This document shows, one piece after another, positions 224 to 63,998 of a DNA stretch of 64,000 nt (positions are counted from its first letter, which is position 1; every line of letters starts with the position of its first letter). A model generated the notes under the pieces. That model searched no databases. It saw nothing but the letters and a program-made list of their open reading frames with translations, and was not told where the DNA came from. The position numbers and the translations under genes are program-made. Location of the stretch: NCBI RefSeq assembly GCF_003991155.1, contig NZ_CP031293.1; one strand, 5' to 3'. The DNA comes from Escherichia coli (lineage in GTDB: Bacteria > Pseudomonadota > Gammaproteobacteria > Enterobacterales > Enterobacteriaceae).

Positions 224-1489
224 TCACCTTTTCAGTGGATTGTTAACTTTTGCATATTCAAACGGACTGATACCCTTATCTCTGTTTGCATCCAGAAAAT
301 CTGCCCACCATTGCAGCATAAGCCGACGTTCTTCCAGATGTTCTGCTTTATGAATATACGCGGCACGTACTCCGTTGCGCTCCTGATGACTCATCTGACG
401 TTCAACCGCATCTCTTGACCATAAACCGGATTCAATCAATGCACTGCACGCCATCGCCCGGAATCCATGGCCACAGACTTCCTTGGTTGTGTCATACCCC
501 ATCACTCTGAGGGCCTTATTTACGGTATTTTCACTGATTGGTTTACGCGGGTCATGTGCTCCCGTAAAGATCAGACCATTTTCACCAGCCCATGTCTGAA
601 GTTCTGTCAGTATGGCTACAGCCTGTTTGCTGAGTGGCACAAGATGTGGTGTTCGCATCTTGGAGCCCCGGTGTGAGAATTTTACCCCTGGCAGAGGTTT
701 GCGTTCGGCTGGAATAGTCCACATGGCATTGTCAATATCAATTTCAGACCAGCGGGCGTATCTGAGTTCACTGGAACGAATAAAAACCAGTAAATTCAGC
801 ATAACGGCAAGCCGGGTGACAGGCTGACCTTTATAACTGTTAATACGCGACAGAAGTTCAGGCAGACGTGAAAGATCAAGAGCGGGGCGATGCTGGCGTT
901 TTACCGTAGTCAATGCGCCAGCCATATCCAGAGCAGGATTATATCTGATGATGCCAGACTGTACGGCATAACGCATTACGGCAGATATTCTTTGCTGCAG
1001 ACGACTGGCGATTTCATAAATTTGTTTAGCTTCTGCAGCACGAACAGGGATAAGCAGATCCGGGGTATTGAGTGTTGTGATATCCCGGTTGCCGATAAAG
1101 GGGAAAACGTGTGTTTCGAGGCTTTTGAGTACTTTATCGCTGTGTGATTGTGCCCATTGTTTATTACTGGCATGCCAGCGTCGTGCAATATGTTCAAAAG
1201 AGAGCTGTAAATCAGGGACTACTTTTTTAGCTCTTTTCTGTTCGCAAGGGTCAATCCCCTCCGAAATCAGTTTTCGGGCCTCATCCCGTTTTGTACGAGC
1301 TTCGGAGAGAGAAACTTCTGGATACACACCAAGTGCCAGAGTCTTCTCCTTACCCAGAATACGATAACGGAGACGCCAGTAACGGGAACCATTAGGATGT
1401 ACCAGCAGGAACATGCCAGCCCCGTCAGTGAGTTTATAAGCCTTGTCAGTGGGCTTTGCAGCCCGGATTTTTGCGTCAGTCAGTGCCAT
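224..1489 (-). CDS. int: P4-type tyrosine integrase at the edge of a pheV-associated genomic island
   Basis: 421-aa ORF; N-terminus 'MALTDAKIRAAKPTDKAYKLTDGAGMFLLVHPNGSRYWRLRY' is typical of P4-family integrases; C-terminal catalytic region with 'HGFRAMA' and 'RAAYIH' (His-x-x-Arg, Tyr); lies directly 3' of tRNA-Phe. Confidence 0.9.
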   Translation of the reverse strand: MALTDAKIRAAKPTDKAYKLTDGAGMFLLVHPNGSRYWRLRYRILGKEKTLALGVYPEVSLSEARTKRDEARKLISEGIDPCEQKRAKKVVPDLQLSFEHIARRWHASNKQWAQSHSDKVLKSLETHVFPFIGNRDITTLNTPDLLIPVRAAEAKQIYEIASRLQQRISAVMRYAVQSGIIRYNPALDMAGALTTVKRQHRPALDLSRLPELLSRINSYKGQPVTRLAVMLNLLVFIRSSELRYARWSEIDIDNAMWTIPAERKPLPGVKFSHRGSKMRTPHLVPLSKQAVAILTELQTWAGENGLIFTGAHDPRKPISENTVNKALRVMGYDTTKEVCGHGFRAMACSALIESGLWSRDAVERQMSHQERNGVRAAYIHKAEHLEERRLMLQWWADFLDANRDKGISPFEYAKVNNPLKR

Positions 1490-1686: not shown

Positions 1687-1762
1687 TGGTGCCCGGACTC
1701 GGAATCGAACCAAGGACACGGGGATTTTCAATCCCCTGCTCTACCGACTGAGCTATCCGGGC
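1687..1762 (-). tRNA. pheV: tRNA-Phe
   Basis: Reverse complement reads GCCCGGATAGCTCAGTCGGTAGAGCAGGGGATTGAAAATCCCCGTGTCCTTGGTTCGATTCCGAGTCCGGGCACCA, 76 nt with GAA anticodon and encoded CCA. Confidence 0.95.
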
Positions 1763-33297: not shown

Positions 33298-33357
<60 letters not shown>

Positions 33358-33386
33358 GCCAGACACAGCGCCGTCAGGCGCTGTTG

Positions 33387-34606
<1,220 letters not shown>

Positions 34607-34631
34607 AGTTTTGTCTTTGCTATCAGTCTCA

Positions 34632-34660
34632 AGGGCCGCGAAAGCGGCCCTTTTTTTACT
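34632..34660 (+). terminator. Intrinsic terminator (plus-strand T-tract) between the REP and the convergent SPFH gene
   Basis: 'gggccgcgaaagcggccc' stem followed by 'ttttttt'. Confidence 0.6.
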
Positions 34661-35564
34661 TAGTAGAGATAAACGGAACTGTGCTGCCGGGGATCATGGT
34701 ATCGGGCAGTTTACCGTCCCAACGCTCAGCAGTGGTGAGGGCAACAAGTCCGGGATTCTCCCGCAGAGCTTCACCGCGCAGGCGGATAGCTTCTGCTTCA
34801 GCCGCACTTTTTAAACGAATAGTTTCAGCCTCTGCCGCGCCTCTTACGCGAATAGTTTCCGCTTCTGCTTTGGCTGCCGCTAGTTTACTGTCTGCTTCCG
34901 CCTGGGCCTGAGTTACCGCTATTTGCGCCTGGATTTTCTCCGTTTCCAGATTTTGCTTACGCGTGGCAATGGCGACTTCTGCTTTCATTCGGTCTTCAAT
35001 CGACTTTTCATAAGCGTCAGAAAAATCAATATTTTCAATCTGGACCCCGTCAATTACCACTGGCCCAACAACGGCTTTGCGCATGGCATTTTGCAGATCC
35101 TGAACCAGTTTTGTGCGATCCTGTACGGCGCTGATGGCGGTATATTGTCCGAAAACGTTCTCCAGTTGAGTTGGCAACTGACGGACAATCAGACGATCTT
35201 TTAATGCTTCAATGGTGTTGTAGGTGGTATAAACCGCGCCTGCTTCTGAAGGTTTAATGTGGAAGCTGACTGATACTGTCATTTGTGCCGGTTGCTGGTC
35301 GCGGCTGTAGGCCTGTAATCCCTGATAGACCACAGCCTGATTACGCGTGGAAATTTTCTCTACGCTTTCCATAAAAGGGATCTTAAAACCCAGCCCCGGC
35401 TCGGCAACTTTTACGATTTTTCCGTAGCGCAGCAAAATGCCGCGTTCACCTTCATTAACGGTGTAATACGAGAGAAATGGCAGCACAACCACGGCAAGCA
35501 CGCCAATGGCGATAGCAAGAGATTTTTGTGGGCGAAATGAGGTTAATGAAACAGGTGCTTTCAT
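34656..35564 (-). CDS. SPFH/band-7 (prohibitin/flotillin-like) membrane protein
   Basis: 302 aa; N-terminal TM helix 'LAIAIGVLAVVVLPFLSYY', SPFH core, then an Ala/Glu-rich coiled-coil with repeats 'AEAETIRVRGAAEAETIRLKSAAEAEAIRLRGEA'. Not one of the four K-12 SPFH proteins (HflK, HflC, QmcA, YqiK) as far as I recall. Confidence 0.85.
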   Translation of the reverse strand: MKAPVSLTSFRPQKSLAIAIGVLAVVVLPFLSYYTVNEGERGILLRYGKIVKVAEPGLGFKIPFMESVEKISTRNQAVVYQGLQAYSRDQQPAQMTVSVSFHIKPSEAGAVYTTYNTIEALKDRLIVRQLPTQLENVFGQYTAISAVQDRTKLVQDLQNAMRKAVVGPVVIDGVQIENIDFSDAYEKSIEDRMKAEVAIATRKQNLETEKIQAQIAVTQAQAEADSKLAAAKAEAETIRVRGAAEAETIRLKSAAEAEAIRLRGEALRENPGLVALTTAERWDGKLPDTMIPGSTVPFISTK

Positions 35565-35941
35565 ATGAATCTTCCTTGAGTAAAGTATAGGAATATGTCA
35601 CATGGGGTGATGAGAAAACAGACAACAGCCGATAATTCAGAATTTATAAAGGGGATGAGCGAAAAAATAATAAACGTAATAAGTATGTTTTCGAACATTC
35701 AATAAGAAAATAGAGATGTGTATCACAAATATAGTGATGAATAATTTGTTGATTTTGTAGTTTACTTAACAGATTTATAATTGACTTTTTAAAAGCTTAT
35801 TTCATGTTGTTGTTATTTAATATTTTGTTATTTTTGCTCGTGGAGTTTCTCCTTTCATGTGTCCAATTGCTTTCGTTAATTTGTACGCGTATTTTATTTT
35901 TACCGCCGGACTGTACCCTAAAAATAAAATAAGGATAATTT

Positions 35942-36385
35942 ATGCGGCTTATTGATTATTTTCCAGAGTCATCAATCTCAGTTATACATTCAGCAAAAGA
36001 TTGGCAGGAAGCTATCGATTTCTCGATGGTATCATTGCTGGATAAAAACTATATCAGCGAGAATTACATTCAGGCAATTAAAGGTTCCACCATTAACAAT
36101 GGCCCTTATTATATTCTCGCACCAGGCGTGGCAATGCCTCATGCACGACCGGAATGTGGGGCGCTTAAAACCGGGATGTCTTTGACATTACTTAAACAAG
36201 GTGTTTATTTTCCGGGGAATGACGAACCAATTAAATTACTCATCGGGCTTTCTGCTGCCGATGCCGATTCGCACATTGGCGCTATTCAGGCGTTAAGTGA
36301 ATTACTGTGCGAAGAAGAAATACTCGAACAACTCTTAACAGCATCATCAGAAAAACAATTAGCGGGCATTATCAGCCGCGGATAA
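35942..36385 (+). CDS. cmtB: PTS mannitol-type EIIA component (cryptic)
   Basis: 147 aa 'MRLIDYFPESSISVIHSAKDWQEAIDF...'; EIIA(Mtl/Fru) His motif 'GVAMPHARP'. Confidence 0.88.
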   Translation: MRLIDYFPESSISVIHSAKDWQEAIDFSMVSLLDKNYISENYIQAIKGSTINNGPYYILAPGVAMPHARPECGALKTGMSLTLLKQGVYFPGNDEPIKLLIGLSAADADSHIGAIQALSELLCEEEILEQLLTASSEKQLAGIISRG

Positions 36386-36412
36386 TTACTCTCTCCTCTA
36401 CAGGATAATATT

Positions 36413-50328: not shown

Positions 50329-51219
50329 ATGGACATTTTTATTTCGAAAAAGATGCGCAATTTCATTTTATTAGCGCAAACCAATAATATTGCCCGGGCG
50401 GCAGAAAAAATCCATATGACGGCTTCGCGATTTGGCAAAAGCATTGCCGCGCTGGAAGAACAAATTGGCTATACGCTATTTACCCGCAAAGATAATAATA
50501 TCAGCCTCAATAAAGCCGGACAGGAACTGTATCAAAAACTGTTCCCGGTTTATCAACGACTTTCTGCGATTGATAATGAAATCCATAACTCAGGACGTCG
50601 TTCACGAGAAATTGTGATAGGCATAGATAATACTTATCCGACCATTATTTTTGATCAGTTGATTAGTCTCGGAGATAAGTACGAAGGCGTGACCGCCCAG
50701 CCAGTTGAGTTCAGCGAAAATGGCGTTATCGATAATCTTTTTGACCGTCAGTTAGATTTTAATATCTCCCCACAGCATGTATCTGCACGAGTTCAGGAAC
50801 TGGAAAACCTGACTATCAGTGAACTACCGCCGCTGCGATTGGGCTTTCTCGTTTCTCGCCGTTATGAAGAGCGACAAGAGCTGCTTCAGGAGCTGCCCTG
50901 GCTACAAATGCGCTTTCAGAATCGGGCCAATTTCGAAGCAATGATTGATGCGAATATGCGTCCTTGTGGGATCAATCCCACCATTATTTATCGTCCCTAC
51001 AGTTTTATGGCCAAAATCAGCGCCGTGGAGCGGGAACATTTTCTGACGGTGATCCCGCATTTTGCCTGGCGACTGGTGAATCCGGCAACGCTGAAATATT
51101 TTGATGCGCTGCACAGACCGATGTATATGCAGGAATATCTTTATTCAATCAGAAATCATCGTTATACCGCCACGATGCTTCAGCATATTGCTGAAGATCG
51201 TGACGGGACAAACCATTAA
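50329..51219 (+). CDS. ygfI: LysR-family transcriptional regulator
   Basis: 296 aa; N-terminal wHTH '[32 protein letters not shown]'. Confidence 0.8.
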
Positions 51220-52310
51220 CCCAGCATCGATCCGGTTGCAATTAAATTACGGTGTAAGTCGAAGACGTGGCTAAGATCGTGGTGAATATGTCCGCCGGAC
51301 GCATTTTCCAGATAGCGATGCAGATAATCCCGACACATAGGATGTGCACAATGATCAATGGTGGTGCGGATAACGTTGTTATACGGATCCTGTGCGCCAA
51401 ATCCACTGACCGCTTCGCTCCATAAATAACGTGCCGCACGCAACATGGCGGCGTTCATAAACAGATCCATGCCAATGCCGAAGAAAAACGACAGGCGAGG
51501 GACGAAGCCATCAATTTTCAGCCCGGCGGAGATTGCTGCTTTGATGTACTCAATCCTATCGGCGAGCGTAAATGCTACCTGCTGCACGCAGTTGGCACCC
51601 GCTTCACCCATGTGGTAACTGCTGATACTGATGGTATTAAATCGCGGCATGTTGCCGGAACACCAGGCGATGATGTCTGCGATAATACGCATTGACGGTT
51701 TTGGCGGGTAAATATAGGTATTGCGGCAGAGGTACTCTTTGAGGATATCGTTCTGAATGGTGCCGGTCAGTTTATCGGATGTAACACCTTGCTCTTCTGC
51801 GGCGACGATATAAAACGCCAGTACTGGTAGCACTGCGCCATTCATGGTCATAGAAACCGACATTTTATCCAGCGGGATCTGGTCGAACAGGACTTTCATA
51901 TCTTCCACGGTGTCGATAGCGACGCCCGCTTTGCCGACGTCGCCCGCCACGCGTGGGTTATCGGAGTCGTAGCCTCGGTGGGCGGCAAGGTCAAACGCAA
52001 CGGAAAGACCTTTTTGCCCGGCGGCCAGGTTACGGCGATAAAAAGCGTTGGACTCTTTTGCTGTCGAGAAACCAGCATACTGACGGATGGTCCACGGTTG
52101 GGTGGTATACATAGTGGCACGCGGGCCACGAACGTAGGGTGGCAAACCAGGAAGAGTACCCGTCACCTCCAGATTATCGAGATCGGCTTCGGTATACAGC
52201 GGCTTGATAGCGATCCCTTCCGCGGTTTGCTGAACCAGCGAGTCGACAGTTTTCTCCCGACGGCTCAATTCATTGTTGGCAAGCTGTTGCCACACCAGCA
52301 CGTTAGACAT
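51216..52310 (-). pseudogene. scpA: Methylmalonyl-CoA mutase (ScpA/Sbm) 5' fragment fused to a short non-mutase tail; remnant of a deleted scpA-argK-scpB-scpC operon
   Basis: From '[44 protein letters not shown]...' through '...[11 protein letters not shown]' the ORF follows the MCM N-terminal barrel; it then switches to '...[46 protein letters not shown]' and stops 3 bp inside the convergent ygfI stop. Only about 320 of roughly 714 mutase codons are present, and no argK/scpB/scpC ORFs exist. Confidence 0.75.
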
Positions 52311-52512
52311 TATTTGCTCCGTAAAACGCAATCAAAGTGAGGGTATTTGCGCTTACGGTGAGCTTTTTACGTGGGTTTGTCGCCAGCAAAAAAATGCATT
52401 CAGACGTCGTTTTTTGCCGCCTGAGATTTGTCTATTTTGTAATGTGATTCAAGGAATACAAAAAGAAGTGAGGATAACGCCTGATATGTGCTATCAGGCA
52501 TTATTTGATGGA

Positions 52513-54747: not shown

Positions 54748-55980
54748 ATGGCAAAGGTATCGCTGGAGAAAGACAAGATTAAGTTTCTGCTGGTAGAAGG
54801 CGTGCACCAAAAGGCGCTGGAAAGCCTTCGTGCAGCTGGTTACACCAACATCGAATTTCACAAAGGCGCGCTGGATGATGAACAATTAAAAGAATCCATC
54901 CGCGATGCCCACTTCATCGGCCTGCGATCCCGTACCCATCTGACTGAAGACGTGATCAACGCCGCAGAAAAACTGGTCGCTATTGGCTGTTTCTGTATAG
55001 GAACAAACCAGGTTGATCTGGATGCGGCGGCAAAGCGCGGGATCCCGGTATTTAACGCACCGTTCTCAAATACGCGCTCTGTTGCGGAGCTGGTGATTGG
55101 CGAACTGCTGCTGCTATTGCGCGGCGTGCCGGAAGCCAATGCTAAAGCGCATCGTGGCGTGTGGAACAAACTGGCGGCGGGTTCTTTTGAAGCGCGCGGC
55201 AAAAAGCTGGGTATCATCGGCTACGGTCATATTGGTACGCAATTGGGCATTCTGGCTGAATCGCTGGGAATGTATGTTTACTTTTATGATATTGAAAACA
55301 AACTGCCGCTGGGCAACGCCACTCAGGTACAGCATCTTTCTGACCTGCTGAATATGAGCGATGTGGTGAGTCTGCATGTACCAGAGAATCCGTCCACCAA
55401 AAATATGATGGGCGCGAAAGAGATTTCGCTAATGAAACCCGGCTCGCTGCTGATTAATGCTTCGCGCGGTACTGTGGTGGATATTCCAGCGCTGTGTGAC
55501 GCGCTGGCGAGCAAACATCTGGCAGGGGCGGCAATCGACGTATTCCCGACGGAACCGGCGACCAATAGCGATCCATTTACCTCTCCGCTGTGTGAATTCG
55601 ACAATGTCCTTCTGACGCCACACATTGGTGGTTCGACTCAGGAAGCGCAGGAGAATATCGGTCTGGAAGTTGCGGGTAAATTGATCAAGTATTCTGATAA
55701 TGGTTCAACGCTCTCTGCGGTGAACTTCCCGGAAGTCTCGCTGCCACTGCACGGTGGTCGTCGTCTGATGCACATCCACGAAAACCGTCCGGGTGTGCTG
55801 ACTGCGCTCAACAAAATTTTTGCCGAGCAGGGCGTCAACATCGCCGCGCAATATCTGCAAACTTCCGCCCAGATGGGTTATGTAGTTATTGATATTGAAG
55901 CCGACGAAGACGTTGCCGAAAAAGCGCTGCAGGCAATGAAAGCTATTCCGGGTACCATTCGCGCCCGTCTGCTGTACTAA
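54748..55980 (+). CDS. serA: D-3-phosphoglycerate dehydrogenase
   Basis: 410 aa 'MAKVSLEKDKIKFLLVEGVHQKALESLRAAGYTNIEFHKGALDDEQL'. Confidence 0.97.
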   Translation: MAKVSLEKDKIKFLLVEGVHQKALESLRAAGYTNIEFHKGALDDEQLKESIRDAHFIGLRSRTHLTEDVINAAEKLVAIGCFCIGTNQVDLDAAAKRGIPVFNAPFSNTRSVAELVIGELLLLLRGVPEANAKAHRGVWNKLAAGSFEARGKKLGIIGYGHIGTQLGILAESLGMYVYFYDIENKLPLGNATQVQHLSDLLNMSDVVSLHVPENPSTKNMMGAKEISLMKPGSLLINASRGTVVDIPALCDALASKHLAGAAIDVFPTEPATNSDPFTSPLCEFDNVLLTPHIGGSTQEAQENIGLEVAGKLIKYSDNGSTLSAVNFPEVSLPLHGGRRLMHIHENRPGVLTALNKIFAEQGVNIAAQYLQTSAQMGYVVIDIEADEDVAEKALQAMKAIPGTIRARLLY

Positions 55981-56000
55981 ATCCCCTTCTCTGAAAATCA

Positions 56001-56032
56001 ACGGGCAGGTCACTGACTTGCCCGTTTTTTTA
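56001..56032 (+). terminator. Intrinsic terminator after serA
   Basis: 'acgggcaggtcactgacttgcccgttttttta'. Confidence 0.65.
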
Positions 56033-56174
56033 TCCCTTCTCCACACCGTTGCCGCATTGCGCATTCTACTTTGCGAGTCTGCTCCAGAAAATAAATCAAA
56101 GTCAGATCAATGCGTTGTGTTTATTTAATGGGGATTTACGATGGCAGGGCAGCATGGGGCTGTAACGGTAAAGC

Positions 56175-56320
56175 CCTCACCGAAGCGAGGGCTTGAAGGA
56201 GAAGGGTTATGATGCGACTTGTCATCATACTGATTGTACTGTTACTCATAAGTTTCCCAGCTTATTAACAGTCAGTCTCAGGGGAGGAGTCATCCTCCCT
56301 TACCCTTACTCACTAAATTA
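56175..56320 (-). ncRNA. sibC: SibC antisense RNA (antitoxin of ibsC); approximate boundaries
   Basis: Inferred from the ibsC toxin ORF on the opposite strand and the flanking hairpins 'aagccctcaccgaagcgagggctt' and 'gggaggagtcatcctccc'; ends not determined. Confidence 0.4.
56209..56268 (+). CDS. ibsC: Type I toxin IbsC (19-aa hydrophobic peptide)
   Basis: Manual translation after SD 'aggaga': MMRLVIILIVLLLISFPAY*; lies in the serA-fau intergenic region where the K-12 ibsC/sibC locus sits. Confidence 0.75.
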   Translation: MMRLVIILIVLLLISFPAY

Positions 56321-56368
56321 GGTTAAAGAATCAACGATGTCAATCAGGGCGATGCAGGTGTGTCGCCC

Positions 56369-56917
56369 TCACCACTCCCAGACTTTCGACGGTGTAACCA
56401 CCGCAGGAAGAGGGATATCCCACTCTTCAACGGGGAGTTTTTCCACCAACTGACAATCATGCGCATAACCCACCGGTTGCATTTTATAGTGCTGCCAGTT
56501 TTGTAAGGTCCGATCATAAAAACCACCGCCCATTCCCAGGCGCTGACCGTACTCATCAAAGGCGACCAGCGGTGTGATCAACACGTCTAATCGGGAAAGG
56601 GGTAGCACGTCACGCACATCCAGTTTTGGCTCATGGATCTTCAACCTGTTCATCACCAGTTCGCTTTGCGGATGGTAGTTCAGGAACAGCAAATTACCGG
56701 CACTAAAGGGATGCAAAACTGGAAGATATACGCGCTTACCGGCGCGCCAGAGTTGTTCTATGAGTGGCTGGGTGTCGAGTTCGCCATCAAAAGAGAGGAA
56801 TACAGCGACCATATGTGCCATCACCACCGGAGGATAAGTCATCATCCGGGTAGCGGCTTGTTGACCCATTTCCTGCTGTTGTTCCGGCGTTAACGCACGA
56901 CGACGTTGCCGAATCAT
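56369..56917 (-). CDS. fau: 5-formyltetrahydrofolate cyclo-ligase
   Basis: 182 aa from 'MIRQRRRALTPEQQQEMGQQAATRMMTYPP'; directly downstream of ssrS on the same strand. Confidence 0.9.
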   Translation of the reverse strand: MIRQRRRALTPEQQQEMGQQAATRMMTYPPVVMAHMVAVFLSFDGELDTQPLIEQLWRAGKRVYLPVLHPFSAGNLLFLNYHPQSELVMNRLKIHEPKLDVRDVLPLSRLDVLITPLVAFDEYGQRLGMGGGFYDRTLQNWQHYKMQPVGYAHDCQLVEKLPVEEWDIPLPAVVTPSKVWEW

Positions 56918-56989: not shown

Positions 56990-57175
56990 AGGGAATCTCC
57001 GAGATGCCGCCGCAGGCTGTAACCCTTGAACCCTTGGTTCAAGGTGAATGTGTCGTCGCAGTTTTAAGGCTTCTCGGACGGACCGAGCATGCTCACCAAC
57101 CGCGGAGCGCCACATTCTTGTGGTATGAAATATCGGCTCAGGGGACTGGCCCGCTTGCGAACATCTCAGAGAAAT
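56990..57175 (-). ncRNA. ssrS: 6S RNA
   Basis: Minus strand reads ATTTCTCTGAGATGTTCGCAAGCGGGCCAGTCCCCTGAGCCGATATTTCATACCACAAGAATGTGGCGCTCCGCGG...GGCGGCATCTCGGAGATTCCCT, the canonical 6S RNA. Confidence 0.93.
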
Positions 57176-62490: not shown

Positions 62491-63585
62491 ATGGCACAAC
62501 AGACTCCTTTGTACGAACAACACACGCTTTGCGGCGCTCGCATGGTGGATTTCCACGGCTGGATGATGCCGCTGCATTACGGTTCGCAAATCGACGAACA
62601 TCATGCGGTACGTACCGATGCCGGAATGTTTGATGTGTCACATATGACCATCGTCGATCTTCGCGGCAGCCGCACCCGGGAGTTTTTGCGTTATCTGCTG
62701 GCGAACGATGTGGCGAAACTCACCAAAAGCGGCAAAGCCCTTTACTCGGGGATGTTGAATGCCTCTGGCGGTGTGATAGATGACCTCATCGTCTACTACT
62801 TTACTGAAGATTTCTTCCGCCTCGTTGTTAACTCCGCCACCCGCGAAAAAGACCTCTCCTGGATTACCCAACACGCTGAACCTTTCGGCATCGAAATTAC
62901 CGTTCGTGATGACCTTTCCATGATTGCCGTGCAAGGGCCGAATGCGCAGGCAAAAGCTGCCACACTGTTTAATGACGCTCAGCGTCATGCGGTGGAAGGG
63001 ATGAAACCGTTCTTTGGCGTGCAGGCGGGCGATCTGTTTATTGCCACCACCGGTTACACCGGTGAAGCGGGCTACGAAATTGCGCTGCCCAATGAAAAAG
63101 CGGCCGATTTCTGGCGCGCGCTGGTGGAAGCGGGCGTTAAGCCATGCGGTCTGGGCGCGCGTGACACGCTGCGTCTGGAAGCGGGCATGAATCTTTATGG
63201 TCAGGAGATGGACGAAACCATCTCTCCGTTAGCCGCCAACATGGGCTGGACTATCGCCTGGGAACCGGCAGATCGTGACTTCATCGGTCGTGAAGCCCTG
63301 GAAGTGCAGCGTGAACATGGCACAGAAAAACTGGTTGGTCTGGTGATGACTGAAAAAGGCGTGCTGCGTAATGAACTGCCGGTACGTTTTACTGATGCGC
63401 AGGGCAACCAGCATGAAGGCATTATCACCAGCGGTACTTTCTCCCCGACGCTGGGTTACAGCATTGCGCTGGCGCGTGTGCCGGAAGGTATTGGTGAAAC
63501 GGCGATTGTGCAAATTCGCAACCGTGAAATGCCGGTTAAAGTGACGAAACCTGTTTTTGTGCGTAACGGTAAAGCCGTCGCGTGA
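62491..63585 (+). CDS. gcvT: Glycine cleavage system T protein (aminomethyltransferase)
   Basis: 364 aa from '[41 protein letters not shown]'; preceded by a roughly 450-bp AT-rich control region. Confidence 0.96.
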
Positions 63586-63608
63586 TTTACTTTTTTGGAG
63601 ATTGATTG

Positions 63609-63998
63609 ATGAGCAACGTACCAGCAGAACTGAAATACAGCAAAGAACACGAATGGCTGCGTAAAGAAGCCGACGGCACTTACACCGTTGGTATCACCGA
63701 ACATGCCCAGGAGCTGTTAGGCGATATGGTGTTTGTTGACCTGCCGGAAGTGGGCGCAACGGTTAGCGCGGGCGATGACTGCGCGGTTGCCGAATCGGTA
63801 AAAGCGGCGTCAGACATTTATGCGCCAGTAAGCGGTGAAATCGTGGCGGTAAACGACGCACTGAGCGATTCCCCGGAACTGGTGAACAGCGAACCGTATG
63901 CAGGCGGCTGGATCTTTAAAATCAAAGCCAGCGATGAAAGCGAACTGGAATCACTGCTGGATGCGACCGCATACGAAGCATTGTTAGAAGACGAGTAA
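63609..63998 (+). CDS. gcvH: Glycine cleavage system H protein (lipoyl carrier)
   Basis: 129 aa '[49 protein letters not shown]'; lipoyl-Lys motif 'ESVKAASD'. Confidence 0.96.

What the first reader, a model, noticed from the sequence alone, without database searches (positions are those of the whole stretch)
56165..56320. Type I toxin-antitoxin locus (ibsC/sibC) in the serA-fau spacer
A 19-codon ORF with a strong SD encodes the highly hydrophobic peptide MMRLVIILIVLLLISFPAY, flanked by hairpins, at the position of the K-12 ibsC/sibC locus. This is a small membrane toxin with a cis-antisense RNA antitoxin. It is invisible to length-filtered ORF callers.
Basis: partly seen in the sequence, partly recalled or inferred. 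Interest (0 to 1): 0.35.

Follow-up and report, generated by a model that had tools for sequence, protein, structure and literature searches.

The report
Known ibsC/sibC toxin–antitoxin locus
This is the well-studied E. coli ibsC/sibC module, a 19-residue membrane toxin gene fully overlapped by an antisense RNA that silences it; it is intact here and ordinary, differing from the K-12 copy mainly by a common Ser17→Pro allele.

Summary
The observation and the interpretation both hold. Window 56209..56268 (+) encodes MMRLVIILIVLLLISFPAY behind an AAGGAG Shine-Dalgarno sequence. It matches Pfam Ibs_toxin (47.3 bits, cutoff 27). The opposite strand matches Rfam SIB_RNA over the full model (136.5 bits, cutoff 56, E 5e-28). 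A gapless alignment to K-12 MG1655 places SibC at 56307→56167 (-), 141 nt, in the same serA–fau spacer. The spacer occurs in 5425 of 5426 complete E. coli genomes and is annotated ibsC there.

The two "flanking hairpins" are the SibC terminator and the SibC 5' stem-loop read on the other strand.

The only coding difference from K-12 is codon 17, AGC→CCA (Ser→Pro). It lies at SibC +49..+51, the TRD1 loop triplet that Han et al. 2010 showed sets target specificity. This triplet has three alleles in E. coli (CCA, AGC, GGA). The spacer also varies in copy number: none, one or two tandem modules.

The mechanism is inferred from K-12 work. SibC pairs with ibsC mRNA through TRD1 and TRD2 and represses it; unrepressed IbsC depolarises the inner membrane.

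Verdict: already known, low interest.

In passing: an IS621 (bridge-RNA recombinase) insertion at 33303..34579.

The parts
56000..56031 (+). serA intrinsic terminator (12-bp stem plus T-run); marks the upstream boundary of the module
   Evidence: Terminator scan; inverted repeat I1.
56115..56142 (+). Inferred ibsC promoter: -35 TTGTGT (56115-56120), 16-nt spacer, -10 TACGAT (56137-56142)
   Evidence: Read from the sequence. Position fits the start site deduced from Han et al. 2010 (PMC2943612). The region from 56057 through this promoter is identical to K-12. Inferred, weak consensus, not called by the scan.
56149..56307 (+). ibsC mRNA as defined in K-12 (159 nt; +1 = G56149)
   Evidence: Han et al. 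report a 159-nt ibsC RNA with an 18-nt 5' overhang beyond the SibC 3' end, mapped through alignment A1. Fold -63.1 kcal/mol, z -5.0. The 3' end is not well defined experimentally.
56171..56194 (-). SibC intrinsic terminator hairpin (P7), followed by UUUACC; on the + strand it is a 5'-UTR hairpin of ibsC mRNA.
   Evidence: compensatory changes among paralogues in this stem.
56196..56201 (+). Shine-Dalgarno AAGGAG, 7 nt before the ATG
   Evidence: Sequence.
56209..56268 (+). ibsC CDS, 19 codons plus stop: MMRLVIILIVLLLISFPAY
   Evidence: Pfam PF13956 47.3 bits; RefSeq WP_071525914.1 on identical DNA.
56167..56307 (-). SibC antitoxin RNA, 141 nt (5' end 56307, 3' end 56167), complementary to the whole ibsC SD and ORF
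   Evidence: Rfam RF00113 hit 56343..56193; ends mapped from K-12 b4446 through gapless alignment A1; fold -55.3 kcal/mol, z -4.9.
56240..56262 (-). TRD1 (SibC +46..+68, P5 loop). It contains the variable triplet 56257-56259: U49GG51 here, GCU in K-12.
   Evidence: TRD1 definition from Han et al. 2010; mapping; the triplet lies in the predicted loop.
56193..56209 (-). TRD2 (SibC +99..+115), complementary to the ibsC translation initiation region; identical to K-12
   Evidence: Han et al. 2010; alignment A1.
56282..56299 (-).
56315..56343 (-). sibC promoter: -35 TTGACA (56343-56338), 17-nt spacer, -10 TAATTT (56320-56315); +1 at 56307
   Evidence: Sequence. The Rfam model starts at this TTGACA (alignment). 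One spacer base differs from K-12. An EsigmaS ChIP peak at sibC is reported in K-12 (PMC4447067).

Best explanation
This is the orthologue of the E. coli K-12 ibsC/sibC type I toxin-antitoxin module, present as a single intact copy in the serA-fau spacer. The plus strand gives a roughly 159-nt mRNA for the 19-residue hydrophobic peptide IbsC. The minus strand gives the 141-nt SibC RNA from a near-consensus sigma-70 promoter. SibC is perfectly complementary to the ibsC ribosome-binding site and the entire ORF. SibC first contacts the mRNA through two independent recognition elements: the TRD1 loop, which pairs inside the ORF around codon 17, and TRD2, which pairs over the SD and start codon. 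Pairing then spreads, translation is blocked, and the duplex becomes an RNase III substrate, so the toxin is kept off. If IbsC is made, it inserts into the inner membrane as a single helix, depolarises it and stops growth. Shown here: the presence, integrity, orthology and family membership of both genes, and the predicted RNA structures. Inferred from K-12 experiments: transcription, repression, RNase III cleavage and toxicity.
For: Rfam SIB_RNA full-length hit, 136.5 bits, E 5.4e-28. Pfam Ibs_toxin 47.3 bits, E 1.8e-12, covering all 19 residues. Gapless alignment to the K-12 spacer with 10 mismatches in 388 bp, mapping b4446 and b4665. Same flanking genes rpiA-serA | fau-ssrS-zapA. Spacer present in 5425/5426 complete genomes, 5421 at >=80% coverage, annotated ibsC. 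TTGACA-17-TAATTT promoter, SD, ATG, stop and terminator all intact. SibC and ibsC mRNA fold far better than shuffles, with the P1, TRD1-loop and terminator architecture that Han et al. describe. 10 of 44 consensus pairs show compensatory changes among the window and K-12 Sib sequences. Literature: two independent TRDs, RNase III digestion of the duplex, cognate specificity (PMC2943612); membrane depolarisation, alpha-helix, psp induction (review PMC8309996).
Against: Nothing here contradicts it. Caveats follow. No expression or toxicity data exist for this strain. The Pro17 peptide itself was not found tested in the papers I could read. The ibsC promoter is weak and only inferred. NCBIfam HMMs gave no hit, although PGAP still names the identical protein IbsC. 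The physiological role of chromosomal Ibs/Sib modules remains unsettled, and one genome (O157:H7 TR01) has lost the module cleanly, which suggests it is dispensable.
Confidence: 0.95

Rival explanations
1. The module is present, but the toxin acts by binding a specific protein target rather than by non-specific membrane damage. For example it could inhibit the Fo sector of ATP synthase, as reported for Salmonella IbsA, so its role would be metabolic down-shift or persistence rather than killing.
For: bioRxiv 10.1101/2025.05.26.656083 reports that the 19-aa Salmonella IbsA binds Fo subunits a and b, blocks proton translocation and lowers ATP. The window peptide shares nine invariant positions with the K-12 Ibs paralogues (M1, M2, I6, I7, L11, L12, S15, F16, Y19).
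Against: That work concerns a different paralogue in a different species and is a preprint. E. coli IbsC overexpression depolarises membranes within minutes (review PMC8309996). Nothing in the sequence distinguishes the two modes.
Confidence: 0.25
2. The locus is a decaying relic: the RNA and ORF are recognisable but no longer function as a toxin-antitoxin pair in this strain. For example, the helix-breaking Pro17 might inactivate the toxin.
For: Proline can disrupt helices. One genome has deleted the module, and copy number varies, which suggests weak constraint on any one copy.
Against: All signals are intact. Pro17 is the Ibs family consensus and is found in K-12 IbsB and IbsE. The CCA 41-mer occurs in 2790 genomes. 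Residue 17 is two residues from the C-terminus, outside the hydrophobic core. The Pfam score is well above cutoff.
Confidence: 0.04
3. The short ORF and hairpins are coincidental features of a terminator-rich convergent spacer (serA and fau 3' ends) with no gene of their own.
For: The spacer lies between two 3' ends, and hairpins are expected there. A 19-codon ORF is short enough to arise by chance.
Against: E-values of 5e-28 (RNA) and 2e-12 (protein) against curated family models. The serA terminator is a separate upstream element. The ORF is conserved across paralogues while third positions and loops vary.
Confidence: 0.01

Closest known systems
E. coli K-12 MG1655 ibsC (b4665) / sibC (b4446), formerly QUAD1c/RygC
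   Same: Same spacer (serA-fau), same orientation relative to neighbours, same lengths (19 codons; 141-nt RNA), gapless alignment with 10 mismatches in 388 bp, identical TRD2, SD, terminator and -35/-10 hexamers.
   Different: Codon 17 is CCA (Pro) instead of AGC (Ser), so SibC has U49GG51 instead of G49CU51 in the TRD1 loop. There are two changed bases in the loop of the SibC 5' hairpin and one base in the sibC promoter spacer.
Tandem ibsC-like pair in the serA-fau spacer of O157:H7, ST2350 and UK_Dog-type strains
   Same: Same spacer. The fau-side copy carries the same CCA (Pro17) triplet and the same promoter-spacer base as the window. The serA-side copy shares the window's upstream sequence and 5'-hairpin loop.
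   Different: Those genomes have two modules (Gly17/GGA plus Ala5,Pro17/CCA) and the window has one. The window copy is a mosaic of features of both and identical to neither.
Paralogous K-12 modules ibsA/sibA, ibsB/sibB, ibsD/sibD, ibsE/sibE
   Same: Same architecture and family. Peptides are 68-84% identical to the window's, with 9 of 19 positions invariant. The Sib RNA secondary structure is shared, with compensatory changes.
   Different: Different chromosomal sites (yegL-mdtA, yqiK-hldE) and different TRD1 and TRD2 sequences. The window's TRD1 loop is only one base from SibD's (UGG versus UGC), whereas K-12 SibC differs at all three bases.
Other E. coli type I toxin-antitoxin modules (hok/sok, ldr/rdl, tisB/istR-1, shoB/ohsC)
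   Same: A small hydrophobic inner-membrane toxin repressed by an antisense RNA (reviews).
   Different: In ibs/sib the antisense RNA spans the entire ORF and RBS. The toxin is much shorter (19 aa) and lacks the positively charged C-terminus of most others.

Membership tests
Rfam RF00113 SIB_RNA (Sib antitoxin RNAs) | Covariance-model score at or above the curated gathering score over the full model | tested here: met
   136.5 bits against a gathering score of 56, model positions 1-147/147, E 5.4e-28; reproduced in the local search.
Rfam RF00113 SIB_RNA (Sib antitoxin RNAs) | About 140-nt RNA with its own promoter and intrinsic terminator, folded into the multi-hairpin structure closed by the P1 stem | tested here: met
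   TTGACA-17-TAATTT, +1 at 56307, terminator hairpin 56194-56171 plus UUUACC. The MFE fold shows the P1 stem, 5' hairpin, TRD1 hairpin, AUGAUGA hairpin and terminator, z -4.9. 10 of 44 pairs show compensatory changes among paralogues.
Rfam RF00113 SIB_RNA (Sib antitoxin RNAs) | Encoded exactly antisense to an ibs ORF, covering both RBS and ORF | tested here: met
   SibC 56167-56307 (-) contains the SD 56196-56201 and the CDS 56209-56268 (+).
Rfam RF00113 SIB_RNA (Sib antitoxin RNAs) | Abundant transcript that represses the cognate ibs mRNA in vivo | not testable with these tools
   Shown for K-12 SibC (PMC2943612; PMC4447067). No expression data for this strain.
Pfam PF13956 Ibs_toxin | Profile HMM score above the gathering threshold over the full 19-residue model | tested here: met
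   47.3 bits against a cutoff of 27, E 1.8e-12, profile 1-19/19. One upstream in-frame residue was added only to satisfy the tool's 20-aa minimum.
Pfam PF13956 Ibs_toxin | 18-19 residue, highly hydrophobic peptide with the conserved MM...II...LL..SF..Y pattern and its own SD | tested here: met
   Invariant M1 M2 I6 I7 L11 L12 S15 F16 Y19 shared with all five K-12 paralogues; AAGGAG SD.
Pfam PF13956 Ibs_toxin | Toxic on overexpression (membrane depolarisation) | not testable with these tools
   Reported for K-12 IbsC, which is Ser17 (review PMC8309996). The Pro17 allele was not found tested.
Orthologue of K-12 ibsC/sibC specifically (not another paralogue) | Synteny between serA and fau, and highest identity to the K-12 C copy | tested here: met
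   Peptide 95% identical to IbsC against 68-84% to IbsA, B, D and E. TRD2 identical to SibC and unlike SibD.
Orthologue of K-12 ibsC/sibC specifically (not another paralogue) | SibC-type TRD1 discriminator G49CU51 | tested here: not met
   The window has U49GG51. This is allelic variation at the same locus (CCA, AGC and GGA alleles), so it does not affect orthology. It does mean that K-12 specificity data cannot be transferred unchanged.
NCBIfam models for Ibs toxins | HMM hit above cutoff | tested here: not met
   No NCBIfam family at E<=1. PGAP nevertheless names the identical protein WP_071525914.1 'toxin IbsC', presumably by a non-HMM rule.

The most novel reading that the evidence does not exclude
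The codon-17 / SibC +49..+51 triplet may be a hotspot under diversifying or gene-conversion-driven selection that keeps co-resident Sib RNAs insulated from each other's targets. At this one locus it has at least three alleles (CCA, AGC, GGA) that differ at 2-3 adjacent bases, in a transcript where only 9 of 159 columns vary among four haplotypes. The two tandem copies in about a third of genomes always differ there. In the window's lineage the single SibC (UGG) is one base from the resident SibD (UGC), so partial cross-repression of ibsD by SibC through TRD1 is conceivable. That would be a natural rewiring of specificity in a model antisense system.
Probability: 0.2. Interest if true: 0.3.

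Novelty: already known. Interest (0 to 1): 0.08.

Why it matters
It matters little as a discovery. ibsC/sibC has been characterised since 2008 and is in Rfam, Pfam, EcoCyc and RefSeq. The check does show that the first-stage reader can recover a 19-codon gene and its antisense RNA from raw sequence. It also documents that automated annotation of non-K-12 genomes lists the toxin but not the antitoxin RNA. The side result may interest people working on antisense-RNA specificity: the experimentally defined specificity triplet of SibC has three alleles, and the spacer holds none, one or two modules across E. coli. It is an elaboration of known biology, however, since strain-to-strain differences in Ibs gene number were already reported (seven Ibs genes in O157:H7 Sakai, Fozo et al. 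2010).

Tried and rejected
1. The sigma-70 consensus scan found no promoter in 55950-56420. On inspection the sibC -10 (TAATTT) has only 3 of 6 matches despite a perfect -35, as does the inferred ibsC -35 (TTGTGT), so the scan's threshold of 4 of 6 per hexamer missed both. The promoters are assigned from K-12 end mapping instead.

2. The NCBIfam scan gave nothing.

3. The founding paper, Fozo et al. 2008 (PMC2597788), is not held. I relied on Han 2010, Fozo 2010, a 2021 review and a 2015 ChIP-seq paper.

4. A weak sraA match on the serA terminator (21.8 bits against a gathering score of 56) was rejected as chance.

5. The allele 41-mer counts summed to more than the number of genomes. I first looked for a second sibC-like copy at yqiK-hldE and at yegL-mdtA in O157:H7. 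Neither carries it. It turned out to be a tandem second module inside the serA-fau spacer itself. The raw figure of 2790 genomes for the CCA allele therefore overstates window-like single copies. About 2790-1843 ≈ 950 genomes (~17%) is my estimate, consistent with 4 of 12 evenly sampled rows matching 41/41.

6. I considered whether the window copy is a simple deletion hybrid of the tandem pair. The pattern of differences is mosaic and not explained by a single crossover.

7. Alternative ORFs overlapping the site (42 aa on + at 56193-56321, 37 aa on - at 56136-56249) have no family support and were disregarded.

Full report
**Observation.** An ATG at 56209 opens a 19-codon frame ending in TAA at 56266-56268, and it translates to MMRLVIILIVLLLISFPAY. 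AAGGAG lies at 56196-56201, 7 nt upstream. Perfect inverted repeats flank the ORF: AAGCCCTC/GAGGGCTT at 56171-56194 and GGGAGGA/TCCTCCC at 56282-56299. Upstream is serA (54748-55980, +) with its own terminator at 56000-56031. Downstream on the minus strand are fau (from 56369), 6S RNA (56992-57175, Rfam 139.8 bits) and zapA.

**Identity.** An Rfam scan of the whole window returned three hits at gathering threshold. One is SIB_RNA (RF00113) on the minus strand at 56343..56193, with 136.5 bits against a gathering score of 56, E 5.4e-28, covering model positions 1-147 of 147. The peptide matches Pfam Ibs_toxin (PF13956) over all 19 profile positions, at 47.3 bits against a cutoff of 27, E 1.8e-12. 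NCBIfam HMMs gave nothing.

The 388-bp serA-fau spacer is found in 5425 of 5426 complete E. coli genomes, in 5421 at >=80% coverage, and is annotated 'type I toxin-antitoxin system toxin IbsC'. In K-12 MG1655 the same spacer carries sibC (b4446, 3056851-3056991) and ibsC (b4665, 3056890-3056949). A gapless alignment with 10 mismatches in 388 columns maps these onto the window as follows:
- SibC: 56307 (5') to 56167 (3'), minus strand, 141 nt.
- ibsC CDS: 56209-56268, plus strand.

**Anatomy.** On the minus strand, TTGACA (56343-56338), a 17-nt spacer and TAATTT (56320-56315) precede the mapped SibC +1 (A at 56307) by 7 nt. The Rfam seed model includes this promoter, which is why the hit starts at 56343. 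SibC folds at -55.3 kcal/mol, z -4.9 against shuffles, into these elements:
- a closing stem (nt 1-6 with 101-106);
- a long hairpin with an 8-nt loop;
- an AUGAUGA/UCAUCAU hairpin;

An alignment of the window SibC with the five K-12 Sib RNAs gives a consensus structure in which 10 of 44 pairs keep pairing through changes on both sides.

Han et al. 2010 (PMC2943612) determined the ibsC start site by primer extension. They used a 159-nt ibsC RNA whose 5' end overhangs the SibC 3' end by 18 nt. That puts ibsC +1 at G56149, 6 nt after a TACGAT hexamer (56137-56142), with TTGTGT 16 nt upstream. I infer this as the promoter. From 56057 through this promoter the spacer is identical to K-12. The 159-nt RNA folds at -63.1 kcal/mol, z -5.0.

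**Mechanism.** This section is inferred from K-12 experiments and was not tested here. Han et al. showed that SibC has two independent target-recognition domains. TRD1 (nt +46..+68, the P5 loop) pairs inside the ORF. TRD2 (+99..+115) pairs with the translation-initiation region. Either one suffices for repression, pairing spreads from these contacts, and the full duplex is digested by RNase III. In window coordinates TRD1 is 56262-56240 and TRD2 is 56209-56193.

Overproduced IbsC depolarises the membrane within minutes, forms an alpha-helix, needs residues 6-19, and induces the psp operon (review PMC8309996). EsigmaS binds at the sibC promoter in K-12, with temperature-dependent effects (PMC4447067). 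A 2025 preprint reports that Salmonella IbsA instead inhibits the Fo sector of ATP synthase. I keep that as a rival for the toxin's mode of action.

**What differs from K-12.** The only coding change is codon 17, AGC (Ser) to CCA (Pro), with all three bases changed. Position 17 is the most variable in the family: Pro in IbsB and IbsE, Gln in IbsA, Ala in IbsD. The window peptide in fact equals the family consensus at that position.

On the antisense strand the triplet is SibC +49..+51, in the predicted TRD1 loop. It is exactly the G49CU51 that Han et al. mutated to UGC to retarget SibC TRD1 to ibsD. The window has UGG.

The nearest complete genome is FDAARGOS_1284. It is 100% identical to window 1-33302 and 34580-40000, and differs at 40 positions over 40000-64000, none of them in the spacer. 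It has a single IbsD-identical module between yqiK and hldE, and that module's Sib RNA has UGC at the same place. In this lineage, therefore, SibC and SibD differ by one base in the TRD1 loop rather than three. TRD2 remains clearly different. Whether this permits cross-talk is untested.

**Population context.** Counts of 41-mers centred on the triplet are:

| Triplet | Residue 17 | Genomes |
|---|---|---|
| CCA | Pro | 2790 |
| AGC | Ser | 2165 |
| GGA | Gly | 1843 |

The sum exceeds 5426, which led me to look for a second copy. It is not at yqiK-hldE or yegL-mdtA in O157:H7. It is a tandem second module within the serA-fau spacer itself. ST2350 and UK_Dog_Liverpool carry serA - ibsC(Gly17) - ibs(Ala5,Pro17) - fau, and ST2350 has two full Rfam SIB_RNA hits there. 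The count of genomes with two matches to the spacer (7311 places in 5425 genomes) agrees with the GGA count.

Window-like single-copy Pro17 loci are thus roughly 950 genomes (~17%), K-12-like Ser17 about 40%, tandem pairs about 34%, and the rest other alleles. This split is my inference from the counts. One genome (O157:H7 TR01) has a clean ~181-bp deletion of the whole unit.

O157:H7 has 3+2+2 = 7 ibs genes by my tally, matching the 'seven Ibs genes' reported for Sakai by Fozo et al. 2010 (PMC2887945). Strain-to-strain differences in Ibs gene number were therefore already reported.

Among four haplotypes, 9 of the 159 transcript columns vary. Three of the nine are the adjacent TRD1 triplet and two are the adjacent loop bases of the 5' hairpin. 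By my own union-bound calculation, a run of three adjacent variable sites among nine random ones has probability <= 0.02. This is suggestive of loop-focused variation but is far from a proper test.

**Comparison and verdict.** The locus meets every testable defining feature of the Sib RNA family, the Ibs toxin family and orthology with K-12 ibsC/sibC. The one exception is the K-12-specific TRD1 triplet, which is an allelic difference. Transcription, repression and toxicity cannot be tested with these tools. The finding is real, correctly interpreted and already known, so interest is low. The most novel reading not excluded is that the TRD1 triplet is a selected specificity hotspot and that this lineage's SibC can partly recognise ibsD. 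I give that about 0.2 probability and modest interest.

**Things seen in passing.**
- The window carries a 1,279-bp insertion at about 33303-34579 that is absent from the otherwise identical FDAARGOS_1284. It encodes a 326-aa protein that matches the IS621 transposase of PDB 8wt6 over its full length at 724.7 bits. The insertion sits next to REP-derived sequence.
- The left end of the window holds a tyrosine integrase next to tRNA-Phe (pheV), at the edge of a large island.
- A 39-SNP patch at 62686-63965 marks a recombination tract in gcvT/gcvH.
- Further items are listed separately.

Noticed in passing
window 33303-34579 (ORF 33407-34387, minus strand): A 1,279-bp insertion absent from the otherwise 100%-identical genome FDAARGOS_1284. 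It encodes a 326-aa protein matching the IS621 transposase (PDB 8wt6_A, 724.7 bits, full length). This is an IS621 copy, the IS110-family element I recall as the bridge-RNA-guided recombinase. It lies between tkt and a prohibitin-family gene, next to REP-derived sRNA-like sequence (ES036 and naRNA4 hits, both below gathering score).
   Followed up: partly
window 56257-56259 and homologous positions in L002, L009, L010, L014: Codon 17 of ibsC, which is SibC +49..+51 (the TRD1 specificity triplet of Han et al. 2010), has three alleles in E. coli: CCA, AGC and GGA, giving Pro, Ser and Gly. Its flanks are almost invariant. The window's UGG is one base from SibD's UGC in the closest genome.
   Followed up: partly
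serA-fau spacer in L014 (ST2350) 2000-2780, L015 (UK_Dog), L011 (O157:H7 TR01): The spacer varies in copy number. About a third of complete E. coli genomes carry two tandem ibs/sib modules here (Gly17 copy plus Ala5/Pro17 copy). K-12 and the window carry one. One O157:H7 genome has a clean ~181-bp deletion of the module.
   Followed up: yes
window 224-1489 (-) and 1687-1762 (-): A tyrosine-type integrase lies immediately beside tRNA-Phe (GAA, pheV). In the closest genome the adjoining ~95 kb is an island with kps capsule genes, Ag43 and a CbtA/YeeU toxin-antitoxin pair. The window starts at the island edge.
   Followed up: partly
window ~51216-52311: Only pseudogene fragments ('methylmalonyl-CoA mutase', 'acetyl-CoA hydrolase') are annotated between srsR and argP in the closest genome. 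As I recall, K-12 has the scpA-argK-scpB-scpC operon at this position, so this would be a deletion; I did not compare with the K-12 region.
   Followed up: no
window ~40000-43620: An ECF-type transporter cluster lies upstream of epd: two ABC ATPases, T and S components, a PPC-domain DNA-binding protein and a nucleoside kinase. From memory this gene content differs from K-12 at this position; not checked here.
   Followed up: no
window 62686-63965: 39 of the 40 differences from FDAARGOS_1284 across window 40000-64000 cluster in 1.3 kb of gcvT/gcvH. This looks like a recombination tract in an otherwise identical background.
   Followed up: no
window 56347-56368 and 56992-57175: 6S RNA (ssrS) and fau lie on the same strand as sibC. 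A GGGCGA/TCGCCC hairpin lies between the fau stop codon (56369-56371) and the sibC -35, and no T-run follows it. Read-through from ssrS-fau into sibC may therefore be possible.
   Followed up: no
L001, L005 (RefSeq annotation of non-K-12 genomes): PGAP annotates the 19-aa ibsC CDS but not the sibC antitoxin RNA in non-K-12 genomes. PGAP also appears to name Ibs proteins by sequence rather than by locus, so allelic variants are labelled 'Ibs family toxin'.
   Followed up: partly
L007 3106-3290 (FDAARGOS_1284 yqiK-hldE spacer): The closest genome has only one ibs/sib module (IbsD-identical) between yqiK and hldE, where K-12 has two (D and E). Many B2-like genomes show the same shortened spacer.
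   Followed up: partly
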